From contig JAEENX010000013.1 of the NCBI GenBank assembly GCA_016283935.1, forward strand, positions 97,759 to 161,758: a stretch of DNA of 64,000 nucleotides. The letters run 5' to 3'. Below are positions 4,242-62,567 of the stretch, piece after piece (within the stretch, counting starts at the first letter, position 1; each line of letters begins with the position of its first letter). Origin of the DNA: Bacilli bacterium (lineage in GTDB: Bacteria > Bacillota_I > Bacilli_A > RF39 > UBA660). The notes under the pieces are model-generated. The model was not told the origin of the DNA and searched no databases. It saw only the letters and a program-made list of their open reading frames with translations. The position numbers and the translations under genes are program-made.

Positions 4242-4655
4242 TCATCTTACATTTTCTTTAAAAAAAGTACTAAGCATGTTTTTATATGTTTCACGTGAAA
4301 CATCATCTTCAACTTGATTAATAATAGTAGAATTATATTTGTTTTTATTATCTCTTTCTAATAAAAAATATATATTATCTACCCTACTTGCTTTAGCAAC
4401 TTCTAGGCACATATCACATGGATATAAGCTAACATAAAGATCACATCCATCTAATCTCCAATCATTTAGATTCTTTTCAGCTTCTCTAATAGCTATTATT
4501 TCAGCATGATTAGTTACATCCGGTGTATTTAATCTATCATTATGTCCCCTACCTATAATTTTATTATTTTTAACCACTATAGCTCCTATTGGAATGTCTT
4601 TATTATCATAAGATATTTGTGCTTCTTTTATTATTTCCTCTATATATTCATTCAT
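4242..4655 (-). CDS. tadA: tRNA-specific adenosine deaminase TadA
   Basis: CDA-fold motifs HAEIIAIREA and PCDMC. The ORF-track start (4733) would read through the SRP RNA gene. The ATG at 4653-4655 (MNEYIEE) has a GAGGT RBS and gives a 137-aa protein. Confidence 0.85.
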   Translation of the reverse strand: MNEYIEEIIKEAQISYDNKDIPIGAIVVKNNKIIGRGHNDRLNTPDVTNHAEIIAIREAEKNLNDWRLDGCDLYVSLYPCDMCLEVAKASRVDNIYFLLERDNKNKYNSTIINQVEDDVSRETYKNMLSTFFKENVR

Positions 4656-4672
4656 AATTACCTCAATAAAAA

Positions 4673-4749
4673 AAATGCGCACACGATTAGTGAATGTTAT
4701 GGCTGCTGTGTTCCCACTCTGACCAGGTTCCAATATAACCGTTGCGCAA
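4673..4749 (-). ncRNA. ffs: Signal recognition particle RNA. This is the minimal 4.5S/scRNA type of about 77 nt.
   Basis: Minus-strand sequence UGCGCAACGGUUAUAUUGGAACCUGGUCAGAGUGGGAACACAGCAGCCAUAACAUUCACUAAUCGUGUGCGCA followed by U8. It contains the domain IV signature UGGUCAG...GGAA tetraloop...AGCAGCC, closed by a GCGCA/UGCGC terminal stem. Location between tadA and dnaX matches scr placement in Firmicutes. Confidence 0.8.
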
Positions 4750-4752
4750 AAA

Positions 4753-4781
4753 TATTATAACATATCCTATAAATTAATCAA
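4753..4781 (-). promoter_or_regulatory. Putative sigma-A promoter of ffs
   Basis: On the minus strand, TTGATT (plus 4776-4781), a 16-nt spacer, then TATAAT (plus 4753-4758), ending about 6 nt before the SRP RNA 5' stem. Confidence 0.4.
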
Positions 4782-9781: not shown

Positions 9782-10879
9782 TTAATTCTCCTTTACCTCA
9801 ACCACACCATCTTTTACAACAAATATTTTTGAATCATTAGTTATTTTCTTACTTAATTTGTTTAATTCTGTTGTAGTTATGAATGTTTGAATATCATTAT
9901 CTATGAATTTTAATATATTATTTATTTTAGTTTTATCTAATTCACTAAATAAATCATCTAATATTAAAATAGGTATAATGTTCTTCTTATCTTTAAATAT
10001 CTCTATCTCAGCCATTTTTAAGGCTATTACAGCGTTTTTTTGTTCTCCTTCGGATCCGAAGTCCTTTAAAGGCTTTTCATCCAATATGAACTCAAAATCG
10101 TCTCTGTGAATACCAATATTAGTAACACCACTTGTAATATCTCTATTTTTATTCTTTTTATATAACTTTTCTATATCTTCTTTAGTTTTGTTTAAAAAAT
10201 CTGACTTATAAACAATTTTTAAATTATCCAAACCTGTAATCTTCTTATAATTATTAGTAATATATTTAGATATTTCTTCAATAAAATCATTTCTATATTC
10301 GTATATTTTTATACCATATTCAATTAATTTAGAAGTTATAATATCCAAATAATCTTGAGAAGCATTACCATTTAAATATAAAGTTTTTAAATAAGAATTT
10401 CTTTGTTTTAGTAATTTATTATATAAAGTTGTTATTTTTAAATATTCATTACTAAATTGAGATAGTTCAATATTTATCAATTTTCTTCTAGTATTTGGAG
10501 TATCTTTAACTAACTTAAGATCATCTAAAGTAAATAAAACAATATTTATATTTGATAAATAATCAACCAATTTAGGTATTTTTTTCTTATTTATCCATAC
10601 TTTTTTATTTTCATCTTTAGAAATAACAATTTTATAATCAATTTTATAATCATCAACTACAGTTCCTTCTACTTTGCAATTATCTTCATCAAATTTAATA
10701 ATTACATCATCTTTAGAACCTCTGAAAGACTTAGTTAAGGCTAATACATATATAGCTTCTACTATATTTGTTTTACCCATACCATTTTTTCCAATGATGA
10801 TATTTTTAGAAGGATTAAAATCCAAAACAAGTTTTTTGTAGTTACGAAAATTATTTATCTTTAAACTCGTAATTTTCAT
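9782..10879 (-). CDS. recF: DNA replication and repair protein RecF
   Basis: Walker [15 protein letters not shown] and the SMC-like signature/Walker B ([12 protein letters not shown]). Conserved position next to gyrB. Confidence 0.9.
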
Positions 10880-10988
10880 TTTTGCCCCCTAATTTTGATT
10901 TTAAGCAATTTTTATATGTTTTAGGTACTCCTATACCACAATATAATTATATCACAAAATAAGTGCCAAAAAAAGAAAAAAAGGCTTT

Positions 10989-11438
10989 TTAGGCCTCTTT
11001 TTTTCTTAATAAAAACTCAAATCTACTAGCTTTTAATATTTGATTCTTTAATGACCAAATTGATTCTTTAAAATCTATTTTATTTCCATTTGTTAATTCT
11101 ATAACAGAACAATTATTTTTATCATTAGAATATATATTATTTATAGATTTTAAATTCAACCATGATACATTATTTACTCTAGGAGAACAAGTAGGGAAGA
11201 ATACTATATTATTCTTACTTTTAACTAAAATAGGAGTTTTATACATATTTCCAGTCATATTTCTATAATAATTAACCCTAATATCATATGAACTACCATC
11301 TATTTCACAATTATACTTAATAATATTATTTGGTTTATTGTTGATAACTATCATTTTATCAACTTCATATACTACTGAATTTTTATTACCCATAGGTAAT
11401 ATAGCCAATGTATTATCAGTAATATTATACTTATTCAT
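10989..11438 (-). CDS. ComK-family protein (putative competence transcription factor)
   Basis: 149 aa with ...AILP..., ...IDGSSYDIR..., KTPILV and IVFFPTCSPR...W. These parallel the ComK hallmarks as I recall them: VLP, FFGSSY, KPPIMV and IFLFPTLSS..W. Assigned from memory of ComK only. Confidence 0.55.
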   Translation of the reverse strand: MNKYNITDNTLAILPMGNKNSVVYEVDKMIVINNKPNNIIKYNCEIDGSSYDIRVNYYRNMTGNMYKTPILVKSKNNIVFFPTCSPRVNNVSWLNLKSINNIYSNDKNNCSVIELTNGNKIDFKESIWSLKNQILKASRFEFLLRKKEA

Positions 11439-11518
11439 AATTTCACCTCCTTGAGAGGTACATTAGCATATGAAAAAGTACAAAAAAGTACATTTTAGTA
11501 AAAAAAAAACATTTTTAA

Positions 11519-12640
11519 TTAAAATGTCTTTATAGGTAATATTAATTGTACTAATGAATCATCTGAAGCTGACATAACTACAATTGGTTTAGAATCTGTA
11601 TTCATATATATAATAATATCTTCATCTTCGAATGATCTTAATACATCAATCATATATTTAGCTGAGAAACTAATACTAATTTCTTCACTATTATTTTTAG
11701 TTATAGAAACTTTATCAGTTCCTGCTCCAATTTGAGTAGCTAAAGAACTTAATACTATTTCTTTTTCGTTAACATCCATCTTAATAATATTTTTATCTTT
11801 AGATTGACCAATTAATGCAACACGATTAATTGAAGCATAGTAATTATTTAAGTTAACATTAACAATATGTTCAAAATCTACTGGAATAAATGATGATGTA
11901 TTAGGATAAGAACCTTCTAATAAATTAGATTGGAATAAAATATTTTCATATTTAAATAATATTTTCTTATCAAATATATGCATTTCTACATTTTTAGATT
12001 CATCAGATATTATTTTTTCTAATTCTCCAATATTAGAAGCAGGTATTACTATATCAACAACTTCATCATATGGTTTATCTAATGTAACAGTCTTTTTAGC
12101 TAATCTATATGAGTCTGTAGCAGTACATTCTAATATATTTCCATTAACTTTAATATTAATACCCATTAATAAAGGTCTAGATTCTTGAACAGATACAGCA
12201 AAGATAGTTTGTTTAATCATTTTCTTTAATGTTTCTGCTTTAATATCTATATGAGTTTTATTATCAGACATATCAATATCTGGATAATCTAAACTATTTA
12301 AACAATTTAAGTTAAATTCACATTCTCCAGATTTAATATTAATTCTTAAACCATCATCAACTTCAAATTTAATAATATCTTCTGGCATATTCTTAATAAT
12401 GTCTAATAAAGACTTATTACTAACAATAATAGATCCTACTGTATCAATACTTTCAATTTTTTCTTTATCAATAAAAGCTTTAATAGTTAAATTACTATCA
12501 CTAGCTGTTAAACTTAATCCTTTGCTATCTAATTCAAATTTAATTCCATTTAATATATTAATAATATTTTTTGGAGATATAGCTTTACTTACATATTGTA
12601 ATTGTTCTAATATTACATTTTTATTTATAGAAAATTTCAT
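11519..12640 (-). CDS. dnaN: DNA polymerase III beta sliding clamp
   Basis: 373 aa, three-domain clamp. N-terminus MKFSINKNVILEQLQYVSKAI. Position immediately downstream of dnaA. Confidence 0.9.
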   Translation of the reverse strand: MKFSINKNVILEQLQYVSKAISPKNIINILNGIKFELDSKGLSLTASDSNLTIKAFIDKEKIESIDTVGSIIVSNKSLLDIIKNMPEDIIKFEVDDGLRINIKSGECEFNLNCLNSLDYPDIDMSDNKTHIDIKAETLKKMIKQTIFAVSVQESRPLLMGINIKVNGNILECTATDSYRLAKKTVTLDKPYDEVVDIVIPASNIGELEKIISDESKNVEMHIFDKKILFKYENILFQSNLLEGSYPNTSSFIPVDFEHIVNVNLNNYYASINRVALIGQSKDKNIIKMDVNEKEIVLSSLATQIGAGTDKVSITKNNSEEISISFSAKYMIDVLRSFEDEDIIIYMNTDSKPIVVMSASDDSLVQLILPIKTF

Positions 12641-12715: not shown

Positions 12716-12724
12716 TTATCCACA
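12716..12724 (+). promoter_or_regulatory. Consensus DnaA box (TTATCCACA) in the dnaA-dnaN intergenic region
   Basis: Exact 9-mer at 12716-12724 within an AT-rich spacer. Confidence 0.55.
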
Positions 12725-14231: not shown

Positions 14232-14520
14232 TTTTTATCTTCACTAACAAACTAAGTTTAAAACAAACATGTTAATAAAGTAAATAATAATTTTTCAATA
14301 TTAAGTTTTAAACCAGTTTTCAACATAGTTTTCCACAGTGTCAGGACCTATAATAACGCACTTTTTTATAGTTTTCAACATATTTCAACAAATTGTGTTT
14401 AAACATATTAACTATTTAACATTTTAGTTTTCAACTATTAACGTTGAAAAGTTTATAATGCGAAATTTAACGTTTTTTCCTTATTTTTAGTTGACTTAGT
14501 TTTTTTTATATAATATAATA
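14232..14520. promoter_or_regulatory. oriC-like region with a cluster of degenerate DnaA boxes. It also holds the rpmH promoter (TTGACT-17-TATAAT near 14489-14517).
   Basis: TTTTCCACA at 14329-14337. GTTTTCAAC-type repeats at 14316-14325, 14371-14380, 14381-14390 and 14427-14436, with inverted GTTGAAAAG at 14442-14451. AT-rich spacers. Confidence 0.6.
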
Positions 14521-60568: not shown

Positions 60569-60642
60569 CTTTACAAGTTATATTTTTTTATGTGTTGATA
60601 TACGAACTAGTGTTTGGTATACTAAACATATGGAGGTATAAA

Positions 60643-62139
60643 ATGAAAACATATATGTGTATTGATTTAAAAAGTTTTTATGCCTCAGTAGAATGTGTTG
60701 AAAGAGGATTGAATCCATTAGATACTAATTTAGTTGTTGCTGATTCATCAAGAACTGAAAAAACTATTTGTTTAGCAGTAACTCCTAGTTTAAAACAATA
60801 TGGACTTTCAGGTAGATCAAGATTGTATGAAGTTGTTCAAAAAGTTAAAGAAATTAACAAAGACAGATTAAAAATATGTAAAAGATTCAATGGCAAATCA
60901 TATTCAGATGCTATTTTAAAAAGTGATAATAGTAAAGAATTAGATTATATAATAGCAACACCTCGTATGAGATTATATATGAAATATTCGACAGATATAT
61001 ACAATATATATTTAAAATATATTTCAAGAGATGATATATATGTATATTCTATTGATGAAGTATTTATAGATGTAACACATTATCTAGACTATTATAAAAT
61101 GAGTGCTAGAGAACTAGTTACAAAAATGATTAAAGATGTATACGAAACAACAGGTATTACAGCAACAGCAGGAATTGGAACAAATATGTATTTAGCTAAG
61201 GTTGCAATGGATATAGTTGCTAAACACGCAGATGCTAATGAATTTGGTGTAAGATTAGCAGAACTAGATGAACAATCATATAGAAATATTTTGTGGACTC
61301 ATAAACCTATAACTGATTTCTGGAGAGTTGGAAGAGGTTATGCGAAGCGATTAGAAGAACACAATATGTATACTATGGGAGATATTGCAGAATGTTCTCA
61401 TTATAATGAGGATCTTTTATATAAATTATTTGGAATAAATGCAGAAACATTAATAGACCATGCATGGGGATATGATGATACTAACTTAGATGATATAAAA
61501 AAATACAAACCTTCATTCAATAGTATTTCATCAGGTCAAGTTCTTCATAGACCATACAATTATAAAGAAACAAAATTAATAATAAGAGAAATGGCAGATT
61601 TATTATCACTTGATTTAGTTGATAAATGTTTAGTAACTGATCAAATTGTATTAGATATAGGATACGATGTTATTAATTTAACAGATCCTAAAATTAAAAG
61701 AATATATGATGGAGAAATTACAACAGATGTATATGGAAGACCAATTCCTAAACATGCACATGGAACTATTAACATAGACCATAAAACAAGTAGTACGAAA
61801 ATATTAACGGATAAGATATTAGAGTTATATGATCGTATTATAGATTTTAGATTATATGTTAGAAGAATAAACATATGTGCTAATAAGGTAGTAAATGAAG
61901 AGTTGACCAAAGATGATGAACCAAAAGTTCAACAATTTGATTTATTCACAGATTACGAATCTTTAAATAAAAAGATCAAAGAAGAACGAAAAAAAGAAAT
62001 TAAAGAAAGAGAATTACAACATGCTTTACTAGATATTAAAAAGAAATATGGTAAGAATGCTATATTAAAAGGCATGAATCTAGAAGAAGCTGCTACAACA
62101 ATACAAAGAAATGAAGGAGTAGGAGGCCATAAAGGATGA
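60643..62139 (+). CDS. Y-family (UmuC/DinB-like) error-prone DNA polymerase
   Basis: N-terminus MKTYMCIDLKSFYASVE (UmuC/DinB signature) after GGAGGT RBS. Palm, fingers and little-finger size. Confidence 0.8.
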   Translation: MKTYMCIDLKSFYASVECVERGLNPLDTNLVVADSSRTEKTICLAVTPSLKQYGLSGRSRLYEVVQKVKEINKDRLKICKRFNGKSYSDAILKSDNSKELDYIIATPRMRLYMKYSTDIYNIYLKYISRDDIYVYSIDEVFIDVTHYLDYYKMSARELVTKMIKDVYETTGITATAGIGTNMYLAKVAMDIVAKHADANEFGVRLAELDEQSYRNILWTHKPITDFWRVGRGYAKRLEEHNMYTMGDIAECSHYNEDLLYKLFGINAETLIDHAWGYDDTNLDDIKKYKPSFNSISSGQVLHRPYNYKETKLIIREMADLLSLDLVDKCLVTDQIVLDIGYDVINLTDPKIKRIYDGEITTDVYGRPIPKHAHGTINIDHKTSSTKILTDKILELYDRIIDFRLYVRRINICANKVVNEELTKDDEPKVQQFDLFTDYESLNKKIKEERKKEIKERELQHALLDIKKKYGKNAILKGMNLEEAATTIQRNEGVGGHKG

Positions 62140-62567
62140 ATGCACAACTTAAATACTCAGATATTATTAACTTGCCACATCATGTTTCCTCTAAACATCC
62201 TCATTTATCTAGAGAACAAAAAGCAGCACAATTCGCTCCATTTGCAGCATTAACAGGATTTGAAGATGATATATCTGAAACAGCAAGATTAACAGATAAA
62301 AGAATTGAAATAGATGATGGACTAAAAGAAATAATTTCTAATAAGTTAAATCTGATAAAATTAAATATAAAAAATAAACCTATTGTAATAATAACTTACT
62401 TTATTAATGATTTAAAAAAATCAGGTGGTAAATATATTGATATAGAAGGAATGGTTAAAAAAATAAATTTATTTGATAATTATTTATTATTAAATGATAA
62501 TACTAAAGTCCCAATCAAGGATATAATTGACATAAAATCAGAGATATTTAAGGATATAAATTATTAA
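62136..62567 (+). CDS. YolD-like protein (UmuD-functional analogue partner of the Y-family polymerase)
   Basis: 143-aa ORF overlapping the polymerase stop (ATGA). Typical polymerase-YolD gene pair as in Bacillus uvrX-yolD / yqjW-yqzH. Confidence 0.55.
   Translation: MNAQLKYSDIINLPHHVSSKHPHLSREQKAAQFAPFAALTGFEDDISETARLTDKRIEIDDGLKEIISNKLNLIKLNIKNKPIVIITYFINDLKKSGGKYIDIEGMVKKINLFDNYLLLNDNTKVPIKDIIDIKSEIFKDINY

What the first reader, a model, noticed from the sequence alone, without database searches (positions are those of the whole stretch)
10989..11438. ComK-like gene inserted between recF and dnaN in the origin gene cluster
Bacillus carries yaaA at this position. Here a 149-aa ORF carries ComK-like motifs (AILP, GSSY, KTPILV, FFPT.S...W). 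A competence master-regulator homologue inside the dnaA-dnaN-recF-gyrBA cluster is unusual. It may indicate natural competence in this lineage, or a repurposed ComK-fold regulator.
Basis: partly seen in the sequence, partly recalled or inferred. Interest (0 to 1): 0.55.

Follow-up and report, generated by a model that had tools for sequence, protein, structure and literature searches.

The report
Short ComK regulator fixed beside oriC
The ORF is a real ComK-family DNA-binding regulator gene that sits at the same spot between dnaN and recF in at least 76 uncultured low-GC gut Bacilli species, which hints at regulated DNA uptake in these unculturable bacteria, although that function is not shown.

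Summary
The 149-aa ORF at 10989-11438 (-) matches Pfam ComK over its full length (104 bits, E 8e-30). It lies between dnaN and recF next to oriC.

It is not a recent insertion. In 76 of 80 species-representative genomes, dnaA-dnaN-comK-recF-gyrB is conserved. DnaN identity falls to 40% and ComK identity to 33%. The ORF is always intact and under purifying selection.

The gene is probably its own transcription unit. In most relatives a dnaN terminator is followed by two to four TTCGACA boxes spaced exactly 10 bp apart. TTCGACA is the exact complement of the Spo0A box. The window's own clade carries TGTAC repeats with the same phasing instead.

A competence role is inferred, not shown. No late-competence genes occur in about 84 kb examined, and K-box evidence is confounded.

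Verdict: a new variant of a known kind, of moderate interest.

The parts
10989..11438 (-). comK-like CDS of 149 aa. It belongs to the short-form ComK subfamily and consists of the ComK domain only.
11443..11452 (-). Shine-Dalgarno sequence AAGGAGGTGA, 4 nt upstream of the ATG.
   Evidence: Read from the sequence. GGAGGTG or GGGGGTG is conserved at this position in nearly all relatives.
11460..11468 (-). Putative extended -10 element (TGcTAATGT) of the comK promoter. No recognisable -35 element is present.
   Evidence: Read from the sequence. The position matches the TGnTATAAG/TATAAC elements of relatives. This is an inference; no transcript data exist.
11458..11492 (-). TGTAC repeats phased at 10 bp: 11488-11492, 11478-11482 and 11458-11462, with a degenerate copy between. 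They occupy the position where relatives carry TTCGACA (Spo0A-box-like) arrays.
   Evidence: The exact TGTAC-N5-TGTAC occurs only here in the 64 kb. The close relatives L005, L010 and L011 have (A/G)TAC repeats with the same phasing. The second repeat ends 12 nt before the -10 hexamer. The last TTCGACA box of relatives ends 11 nt (22 loci) or 12 nt (7 loci) before theirs.
11484..11517 (.). Type-I K-box-like match (AAAA-N5-TTTT-N8-AAAA-N5-TTTa, 1 mismatch).
   Evidence: It is the only match with at most 1 mismatch in the window, against 0.1 expected. Part of it coincides with the dnaN terminator's T-run. Only 8 of 76 relatives have such a match. It is therefore probably incidental.
11499..11527 (-). 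Weak terminator-like hairpin at the dnaN stop codon (ACATTTT-aatta-AAAATGT followed by T10).
   Evidence: Read from the sequence. My scan did not call it in the window because the stem has only one G-C pair. A stronger hairpin at the same place was called in 61 of 76 relatives, including L005 and L010.
10976..11002 (-). Intrinsic-terminator-like hairpin overlapping the comK stop codon (AAAAAGAGGCCTAAAAAGCCTTTTTTT followed by a T-run).
   Evidence: Found by the terminator scan: 4 sites against 0.4 expected in shuffles. A terminator-like site was found in the comK-recF gap of 32 of 76 relatives.
10946..10954 (-). Extended -10 promoter (TGATATAAT) for recF.
   Evidence: TGNTA[TC]AAT is present in the comK-recF gap of every one of the 76 loci.
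10924..10937 (-). Conserved recF-leader element GGTATAGGAGTACC, a small hairpin at about +1 of the recF transcript.
   Evidence: The GTATAGGAGTA core is conserved in nearly all loci. In many clades it forms a 9-12 bp hairpin followed by a T-rich run. 84% of cells pair, against 73% in shuffles, and there are compensatory changes at two outer pairs. No Rfam family matches.
11519..12640 (-). dnaN, the upstream neighbour.
   Evidence: three DNA_pol3_beta domains.
9782..10879 (-). recF, the downstream neighbour. It abuts gyrB with no remB/yaaB gene between them.
   Evidence: SMC_N/AAA_15/AAA_23.

Best explanation
The ORF encodes a functional transcription factor of the ComK family. It is a compact ~150-aa 'short form' made of the ComK DNA-binding core only, and that core has a LytTR-like beta fold. 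In a large radiation of uncultured low-GC Bacilli (RF39-like by record titles, an inference) the gene occupies the slot between dnaN and recF where Bacillus has yaaA, and it has stayed there through deep divergence.

It is probably transcribed on its own. In most relatives dnaN ends in a terminator. A promoter follows that has a good or extended -10 element but no -35 element. It is preceded by boxes spaced 10 bp apart, then a strong ribosome-binding site, the gene, and (in the window) its own terminator. recF then has a separate, invariant extended -10 promoter.

In most relatives the phased boxes are TTCGACA, the exact complement of the Spo0A box TGTCGAA. This suggests that, as in B. subtilis, comK expression is gated by Spo0A~P. 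In the window's clade the boxes are TGTAC/ATAC instead, so the input there is different or has co-evolved, possibly as autoregulation.

The most likely output is activation of DNA-uptake and recombination genes, a competence or K-state-like programme. The origin position could couple gene dosage to replication status.

Shown: family membership, fold, synteny, purifying selection, and the cis-element statistics. Inferred: who binds the boxes, the target genes, and any effect of the origin position.
For: - Family: Pfam ComK, 104 bits, full length. Identity to a Bacillus-type 192-aa ComK representative is 32% over 147 residues, E 4e-20.
- Synteny: 76 of 80 species loci show dnaA-dnaN-comK-recF-gyrB, with DnaN identity 40-96%. 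The intergenic gaps are typically about 80-150 and 77-160 nt, and the ORFs are 146-162 aa. The pattern extends to L211, whose ComK is 31% identical.
- Selection: dN/dS is 0-0.14 in close pairs.
- Own transcription unit: a hairpin at the dnaN stop in 61 of 76 loci, the comK terminator in the window, and a TGNTATAAT recF promoter in 76 of 76 loci.
- Boxes: 74 of 111 forward TTCGACA copies in 608 kb lie in the ~100-nt dnaN-comK gap. TCGACA occurs at 9.8 per kb there against 0.115 per kb elsewhere. The spacing is exactly 10 bp in 44 cases and 20 bp in 11. The central G sets them apart from the lineage's DnaA boxes, T[AT]TC[A/C]ACA.
- The boxes also accompany comK in loci away from the origin, L056 and L059.
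- Precedents: the Spo0A box is TGTCGAA (PMC5295017, PMC3485338). Spo0A~P binds PcomK directly in B. subtilis (PMC3297582). RF39 and most of ML615J-28 keep many sporulation genes, and two RFN20 families are stated to encode spo0A (PMC10868615).
Against: - No late-competence genes or prepilin motifs were found in the 64-kb window or in about 20 kb of flanks. The whole genome was not available, so the competence regulon is unverified.
- The short form lacks the C-terminal ~35 residues of Bacillus ComK. That region holds the MecA/ClpCP degron (PMC8138137). From my recollection of Susanna et al. 2006, it is also needed for transcription activation. The short form's regulatory logic, and perhaps its activity, must therefore differ.
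- Canonical K-boxes are not conserved upstream of comK or recF.
- The window's own clade has no TTCGACA boxes, so Spo0A gating is not supported for this particular genome.
- Presence of spo0A in these genomes was not checked directly, and the RF39-like placement rests on record titles only.
- The strict origin synteny has no explanation within a pure 'competence regulator' model.
Confidence: 0.6

Rival explanations
1. It is a repurposed ComK-fold DNA-binding protein whose job concerns the origin region itself. It might regulate recF/gyrBA or replication initiation, or act as an origin-proximal nucleoid protein, and it would not control DNA uptake.
For: - The position inside the dnaA-gyrA cluster is nearly invariant over deep divergence.
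- It occupies the slot that yaaA holds in Bacillus (from knowledge of the B. subtilis gene order).
- It lacks the C-terminal region of Bacillus ComK.
- No competence genes were found in about 84 kb.
- Immediately downstream lies a recF promoter and leader element conserved across all or nearly all loci, with an unknown ligand.
- The TTCGACA boxes differ by one base from the lineage's DnaA boxes.
Against: - In 4 of 80 genomes the gene lies elsewhere. In L036 and L056 it sits next to ligA, nests in an NJ tree among the origin-linked sequences, and in L056 and L059 keeps the same promoter architecture. The gene therefore works away from oriC.
- comK and recF have separate promoters, and the window has a terminator between them.
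- No motif is shared between the comK repeats and the oriC regions.
- The conserved core motifs of ComK are all retained.
Confidence: 0.25
2. The phased boxes are the protein's own autoregulatory sites: LytTR-like recognition of direct repeats next to the -35 region. They would not be Spo0A sites, and they would co-evolve with the protein.
For: - The fold is LytTR-like. From knowledge, LytTR regulators such as AgrA and ComE bind direct repeats just upstream of the -35 region of their own operons.
- B. subtilis ComK activates its own promoter (PMC3297582 abstract).
- In the window clade both change together. The boxes change from TTCGACA to TGTAC. The protein is unusually divergent there, 62-84% identical where DnaN is 88-96%, and its dN/dS is higher, 0.14-0.44.
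Against: - The box equals the 7-nt Spo0A consensus exactly, and it has the 10-bp tandem spacing that I recall for the abrB 0A boxes (recollection; the held papers did not confirm the spacing).
- The box stays invariant across ComK proteins that are only 33-45% identical. That is unexpected if site and protein co-evolve.
- Known LytTR sites are 9-bp repeats about 21 bp apart, not 10 bp (from knowledge).
- B. subtilis ComK binds A4N5T4 dyads (PMC4482431 for the AT-boxes and 8-nt spacing; the consensus from knowledge).
Confidence: 0.3
3. It is a chance ORF, a compositional coincidence in AT-rich DNA, or a recently acquired mobile insertion.
For: The genome is about 25% G+C, so spurious ORFs are common. 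The local G+C is slightly low (0.223).
Against: - Pfam E 8e-30.
- 1558 family representatives at E <= 1e-3.
- Conserved synteny in 76 species.
- Purifying selection.
- A confident fold.
- A strong ribosome-binding site.
- No transposase or other mobile-element gene adjoining the window's copy. IS and sigma/anti-sigma insertions are seen only in L076 and L077, and they lie beside the gene, not around it.
Confidence: 0.01

Closest known systems
Bacillus subtilis ComK (192 aa, Pfam PF06338), master regulator of competence (the K-state)
   Same: It has the same Pfam domain over its full length. It is 32% identical to a Bacillus-type representative. The shared conserved motifs are T-L/M-A-I-L/I-P, GSSY.GR, KxPI, FFPT.S and W. 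In most relatives the promoter carries Spo0A-type boxes, and B. subtilis PcomK is bound by Spo0A~P (PMC3297582).
   Different: It is about 40 residues shorter. It lacks the N-terminal ~10 residues and the whole C-terminal region, which in B. subtilis carries the MecA/ClpC degron FMLYPKEERT...GERY (PMC8138137). In an NJ tree with weak internal branches it falls in a separate short-form group. Its location between dnaN and recF is fixed. Canonical K-boxes are not conserved at its own promoter. Its regulon is unknown.
LytTR-domain response regulators (AgrA, and ComE of S. pneumoniae)
   Different: There is no Pfam LytTR hit (one search lists only ComK at E <= 10). The profile-versus-PDB-sequence match to 3d6w is only E 0.89. 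There is no receiver domain. The repeats here are spaced 10 bp apart, not about 21 bp. The origin-dosage model for comCDE has itself been disputed (PMC8394987).
Spo0A-controlled promoters (0A boxes, TGTCGAA)
   Same: The match to the core consensus is 7 of 7, with A/T flanks (PMC3485338, PMC5295017). The boxes form tandem same-orientation copies 10 bp apart upstream of a promoter that lacks a -35 element.
   Different: Binding is untested. The window's own clade has TGTAC repeats instead. The boxes also differ by only one base from local DnaA boxes.
yaaA (rlbA), the S4-domain gene at the dnaN-recF position in Bacillus
   Same: It has the same chromosomal slot and a similarly small size (from knowledge of the B. 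subtilis 168 gene order).
   Different: The fold and family are unrelated. The window protein is ComK, with no S4-domain hit.

Membership tests
ComK family (Pfam PF06338) | Significant full-length match to the ComK profile HMM | tested here: met
   104 bits against a cut-off of 22.3, E 8.2e-30, profile positions 2-150 of 152. All 18 close homologues also carry PF06338.
ComK family (Pfam PF06338) | Conserved core motifs shared with Bacillus-type ComK | tested here: met
   P82 is invariant. Y4, T10, C44, G48, R54, K67, P69, I70, F81, S85, W93, S126 and Q133 are at least 90% conserved across 136 short and long forms.
Bacillus-type ComK regulatory module | C-terminal MecA/ClpCP recognition region (FMLYPK...) | tested here: not met
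   The protein ends at the position equivalent to about residue 157-160 of the 192-aa forms. The degron is defined in PMC8138137.
Bacillus-type ComK regulatory module | K-box (two A4N5T4 AT-boxes, 8/18/31 bp apart) at its own promoter and at target promoters | tested here: inconclusive
   One match with 1 mismatch lies at 11484-11517, against 0.1 expected. It overlaps the dnaN terminator's T-run and occurs in only 8 of 76 relatives. Target promoters were not available.
Bacillus-type ComK regulatory module | Controls late-competence operons (comG, comE, comF, dprA, ssbB, recA) | not testable with these tools
   None of these genes lies in the window or in about 20 kb of flanks. The rest of the genome could not be retrieved.
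LytTR DNA-binding domain (Pfam PF04397) | Sequence match to the LytTR profile | tested here: not met
   There is no LytTR hit at E <= 10. The ComK profile matches the 3d6w sequence only at E 0.89.
LytTR DNA-binding domain (Pfam PF04397) | LytTR beta fold | tested here: met
Spo0A regulon promoter | Consensus 0A boxes (TGTCGAA) in the promoter region | tested here: not met
   This holds for the window itself, which has no TTCGACA upstream of comK. The feature is met in relatives: 61 of 76 loci have at least 1 box (one mismatch allowed), 39 have at least 2, and the spacing is 10 bp.
Spo0A regulon promoter | spo0A present in the genome, and Spo0A~P binds the site | not testable with these tools
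   The only support is from the literature. Related uncultured orders keep many sporulation genes, and two RFN20 families are stated to encode spo0A (PMC10868615).

The most novel reading that the evidence does not exclude
The short-form ComK is an origin-coupled switch. It would be a LytTR-like, degron-less regulator held at oriC across a whole uncultured order because its position, dosage or local DnaA/Spo0A occupancy ties replication status to a DNA-uptake/recombination programme, or to replication control itself. That would be a ComK-based analogue of the origin-proximal pneumococcal comCDE circuit, and it would use a DNA site different from the Bacillus K-box.
Probability: 0.15. Interest if true: 0.7.

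Novelty: new variant of a known kind. Interest (0 to 1): 0.45.

Why it matters
RF39-like Bacilli are abundant gut bacteria with reduced genomes and no cultured representatives. A conserved ComK regulator under selection suggests that they keep a regulated developmental programme, probably DNA uptake. That bears on horizontal gene transfer in the gut and on prospects for genetic manipulation once the bacteria are cultured.

The fixed origin position, the exact Spo0A-type boxes and the missing MecA degron together give a compact, testable model of how ComK circuits are wired outside Bacillus.

The LytTR-like fold, obtained here with high confidence, offers a structural frame for ComK. No solved structure of ComK was found in the PDB.

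Tried and rejected
- **Metagenome scan for a regulon.** I scanned for the triple TTCGACA array. None encoded ComK. The low-GC hits were iteron-like arrays in unrelated contexts. This was a dead end.
The result is confounded by the terminator's T-run and is not conserved.
- **DnaA boxes as the identity of the repeats.** Rejected. The oriC boxes of these genomes have A or C at the central position (466 of 489), whereas the comK-gap boxes have G (55 of 77).
- **CodY box.** By eye, only 4 of 7 core positions match. Rejected.
- **Late-competence genes.** I searched by Pfam across about 50 window proteins, by a prepilin regex, and by walking 10 kb beyond each window edge. None was found. Two edge look-ups failed because the start codons differed.
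- **Other sequence libraries.** NCBIfam and PDB sequence searches gave nothing significant.
- **Rfam.** Nothing credible in the two intergenic regions.
- **RNAalifold on the recF leader.** It predicted nothing on a mixed-clade alignment. Counting pairs for a structure I specified did give support.
- **afdb50 fold library.** It was unavailable.
- **Literature.** Searches found no report of comK between dnaN and recF, and none of ComK in RF39 or Tenericutes.

Full report
**1. Observation**

An ORF of 149 codons lies at 10989-11438 on the - strand. It starts with ATG, and the sequence AAGGAGGTGA lies 4 nt upstream.

Pfam ComK (PF06338) matches at 104 bits, E 8.2e-30, over profile positions 2-150 of 152. 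NCBIfam and a PDB sequence search gave nothing significant.

The neighbours are dnaA, dnaN, recF, gyrB and gyrA, all on the - strand (Pfam labels on identical public contigs). The GC skew changes sign between the 12-14 kb and 14-16 kb windows. DnaA-box-like repeats (TGTTGAAAA, TGTGGAAAA) lie upstream of dnaA, and a perfect TTATCCACA lies between dnaA and dnaN. The cluster is therefore at oriC.

**2. Not an insertion but a fixed arrangement**

The identical protein occurs on MAG contigs annotated 'competence protein ComK' by JGI. Homologues at 63%, 43% and 40% identity are all flanked by dnaN and recF.

A scan of one genome per GTDB species found 187 species with a relative, and the best 80 loci were kept. 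By tblastn, 76 of the 80 show dnaA-dnaN-comK-recF-gyrB. DnaN identity to the window ranges from 96% down to 40%, and ComK identity from 84% down to 33%. The gaps are typically about 80-150 nt (dnaN-comK) and 77-160 nt (comK-recF). The ORF is always intact, at 146-162 aa.

A still more distant representative, P0085 (31% identical), sits on a 926-bp contig between a DnaN C-terminus and a RecF N-terminus.

The record titles are all uncultured Bacilli, 'Tenericutes' or Mollicutes MAGs from guts and digesters. With about 25% G+C, standard code 11 and peptidoglycan genes (MurA, a Mur ligase, Lgt), this fits the RF39, ML615J-28 or RFN20 group. I could not obtain GTDB labels, so that placement is an inference.

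dN/dS is 0-0.14 for close pairs. It is 0.14-0.44 within the window's own clade, where ComK evolves much faster than its neighbours.

Four loci carry comK elsewhere. In L036 and L056 it is convergent with ligA. In an NJ tree these sequences nest among the origin-linked ones (the internal branches are short, so this is only suggestive).

**3. What kind of ComK**

A profile search of 1.84 billion representatives found 1558 family members at E <= 1e-3. They fall into two length classes, about 146-157 aa and about 185-200 aa.

The NJ tree separates a mostly long-form group from a short-form group. The long-form group includes P0167, which resembles my recollection of B. subtilis ComK. The short-form group holds all the origin-linked sequences.

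The window protein aligns to residues 12-157 of P0167 (32% identity, E 4e-20). It therefore lacks the C-terminal ~35 residues. In B. subtilis that C-terminus (FMLYPKEERT...GERY) is the MecA/ClpC degron (PMC8138137, citing Prepiak and Dubnau 2007). From my recollection of Susanna et al. 2006, it is also needed for transcription activation and tetramer formation. The Bacillus-style post-translational control cannot apply here.

**4. Fold**

With a 13-sequence alignment, AF2 gave pLDDT 74. With 136 sequences it gave pLDDT 96.8 and pTM 0.90.

A profile search of PDB sequences gave only two non-significant hits, one of them 3d6w at E 0.89.

A 2026 preprint independently notes ComK/AgrA-LytTR/RemA/SwrD fold similarity (PMC13232269). 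The fold assignment is thus a property of the ComK family and is only partly new. It is fold resemblance, not LytTR membership, because there is no Pfam LytTR hit.

**5. Transcription-unit anatomy**

A terminator-like hairpin sits at the dnaN stop codon in 61 of 76 loci. In the window it is weakened to a 7-bp stem followed by T10.

In the window, comK ends in a terminator-like hairpin at 10976-11002. A terminator-like site was found in the comK-recF gap of 32 of 76 relatives.

Every locus has TGNTA[TC]AAT upstream of recF. comK is therefore most probably transcribed from its own promoter in the short dnaN-comK gap.

**6. The comK promoter**

In most relatives the gap holds TTCGACA boxes in one orientation.

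| Measure | Result |
|---|---|
| Forward TTCGACA copies in 608 kb that lie in this ~100-nt gap | 74 of 111 |
| TCGACA density, gap versus elsewhere | 9.8 versus 0.115 per kb |
| Loci with at least one box (<= 1 mismatch) | 61 of 76 |
| Loci with two or more boxes | 39 of 76 |
| Spacing between successive boxes | 10 bp in 44 cases, 20 bp in 11 |
| Distance from last box to a -10 hexamer | 11 nt (22 loci) or 12 nt (7 loci) |

No -35 element is evident.

The boxes resemble the lineage's DnaA boxes but differ systematically. The oriC regions have T[AT]TC[A/C]ACA (466 of 489 with A or C, 11 with G). The comK gap has G at that position in 55 of 77 boxes.

TTCGACA is the reverse complement of the Spo0A box core TGTCGAA. 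That core is conserved from Bacillus to Clostridioides and is flanked by A/T (PMC5295017, PMC3485338). In B. subtilis, Spo0A~P binds PcomK directly at five such sites (PMC3297582). RF39 and most of ML615J-28 are reported to keep many sporulation genes. Two RFN20 families are stated to encode spo0A, and two others to lack it (PMC10868615).

The boxes also precede comK where it lies next to ligA, in L056 and L059. They belong to comK, not to oriC.

I therefore consider Spo0A gating the best reading for most relatives. Autoregulation by the LytTR-like protein is a serious rival.

In the window's own clade (the window, L005, L010, L011) the boxes are replaced by TGTAC/ATAC repeats with the same 10-bp phasing, in the equivalent position relative to the -10 element. 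The window has no TTCGACA array. For this genome the upstream input is unknown.

**7. K-boxes and the regulon**

The only type-I K-box with at most 1 mismatch in the 64 kb lies at 11484-11517, directly upstream of comK, against 0.1 expected. Part of it coincides with the dnaN terminator's T-run. Only 8 of 76 relatives have such a match. I treat it as incidental.

No comG/comE/comF/dprA genes, Spo0A or prepilin motifs occur in the window or in about 10 kb beyond each edge. The whole genome could not be reached, so the competence role remains an inference from family membership.

A metagenome scan for the triple box returned only unrelated iteron-like arrays.

**8. Why at the origin?**

This is unexplained. 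[quoted passage not shown] A gene-dosage trigger was proposed for it and was later questioned (PMC8394987). ComE is a LytTR regulator, which makes the parallel attractive. It is only an analogy.

**9. Verdict**

This is a genuine ComK-family gene. It represents a short, degron-less, LytTR-fold subfamily with a conserved origin-proximal position and a distinctive promoter.

My literature searches found no report of this synteny. The family, and part of the fold similarity, are already known. I class it as a new variant of a known kind, with interest 0.45.

Noticed in passing
window 10924-10954 (- strand); comK-recF gap of L005-L089: Every related locus has an extended -10 element, TGNTATAAT, upstream of recF. 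A conserved GTATAGGAGTA element follows 6-9 nt later. In many clades it forms a 9-12 bp hairpin (AATAGGTAT...ATACCTATT) followed by a T-rich run, which looks like a leader attenuator, a 5' stabiliser or an operator. The outer pairs show compensatory changes (UA/AU 13:11; AU/CG/UA 11:9:3). No Rfam family matches.
   Followed up: partly
dnaN-comK gap of L012-L089 (for example L037, L050, L055): Two to four TTCGACA boxes (the Spo0A-box complement) lie exactly 10 bp apart in one orientation. Some loci also have a perfect DnaA box, TGTGGATAA, just upstream (L025, L026, L038, L045, L076).
   Followed up: yes
window 14300-14450 and 12716-12724: The oriC DnaA boxes of this organism are mostly TTTTC(A/C)ACA variants, in a cluster upstream of dnaA. 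One perfect TTATCCACA lies between dnaA and dnaN. The GC skew changes sign between the 12-14 kb and 14-16 kb windows.
   Followed up: partly
L140, L143, L169, L206 (metagenome contigs): Long arrays of TTTCGACA-containing repeats spaced 10-11 bp apart occur in unrelated low-GC contigs. They look like plasmid or phage iterons. The same 7-mer may therefore serve other DNA-binding proteins.
   Followed up: no
L076 2343-3737; L077 2516-3798: The dnaN-comK gap has been invaded in two species. One carries a split transposase. The other carries what looks, from its sequence, like an ECF-type sigma factor with an adjacent 268-aa ORF (possibly an anti-sigma factor) on the opposite strand; neither was scanned against Pfam. 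comK and its boxes stay intact downstream.
   Followed up: partly
window 4242-4753: The listed ORF for the TadA-like deaminase (TTG start at 4733) overlaps the SRP RNA gene (4668-4753, Rfam 55 bits). The Pfam match begins at residue 29, and a relative's product is 137 aa rather than 163 aa. The true start is probably further downstream.
   Followed up: no
L212 4815-7448: In a near-identical contig, gyrA is called as two genes (617 + 170 aa), whereas the window has one 877-aa ORF. The cause is probably a frameshift or an assembly error.
   Followed up: no
window 60592-62567: A Y-family DNA polymerase gene (IMS domains) overlaps by 4 nt a 143-aa ORF that has no Pfam hit. The pair is conserved on 22+ contigs and may form a damage-tolerance module.
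   Followed up: no
L212 13890-19150 (left of the window): After pth-mfd there is only a 76-aa ORF with no Pfam hit before metG. The spoVT-yabP/Q-spoIIE block found at this place in spore-forming Bacillus (from knowledge) is absent here. This is a weak hint that the window's organism may not sporulate, which would fit its lack of TTCGACA boxes.
   Followed up: no
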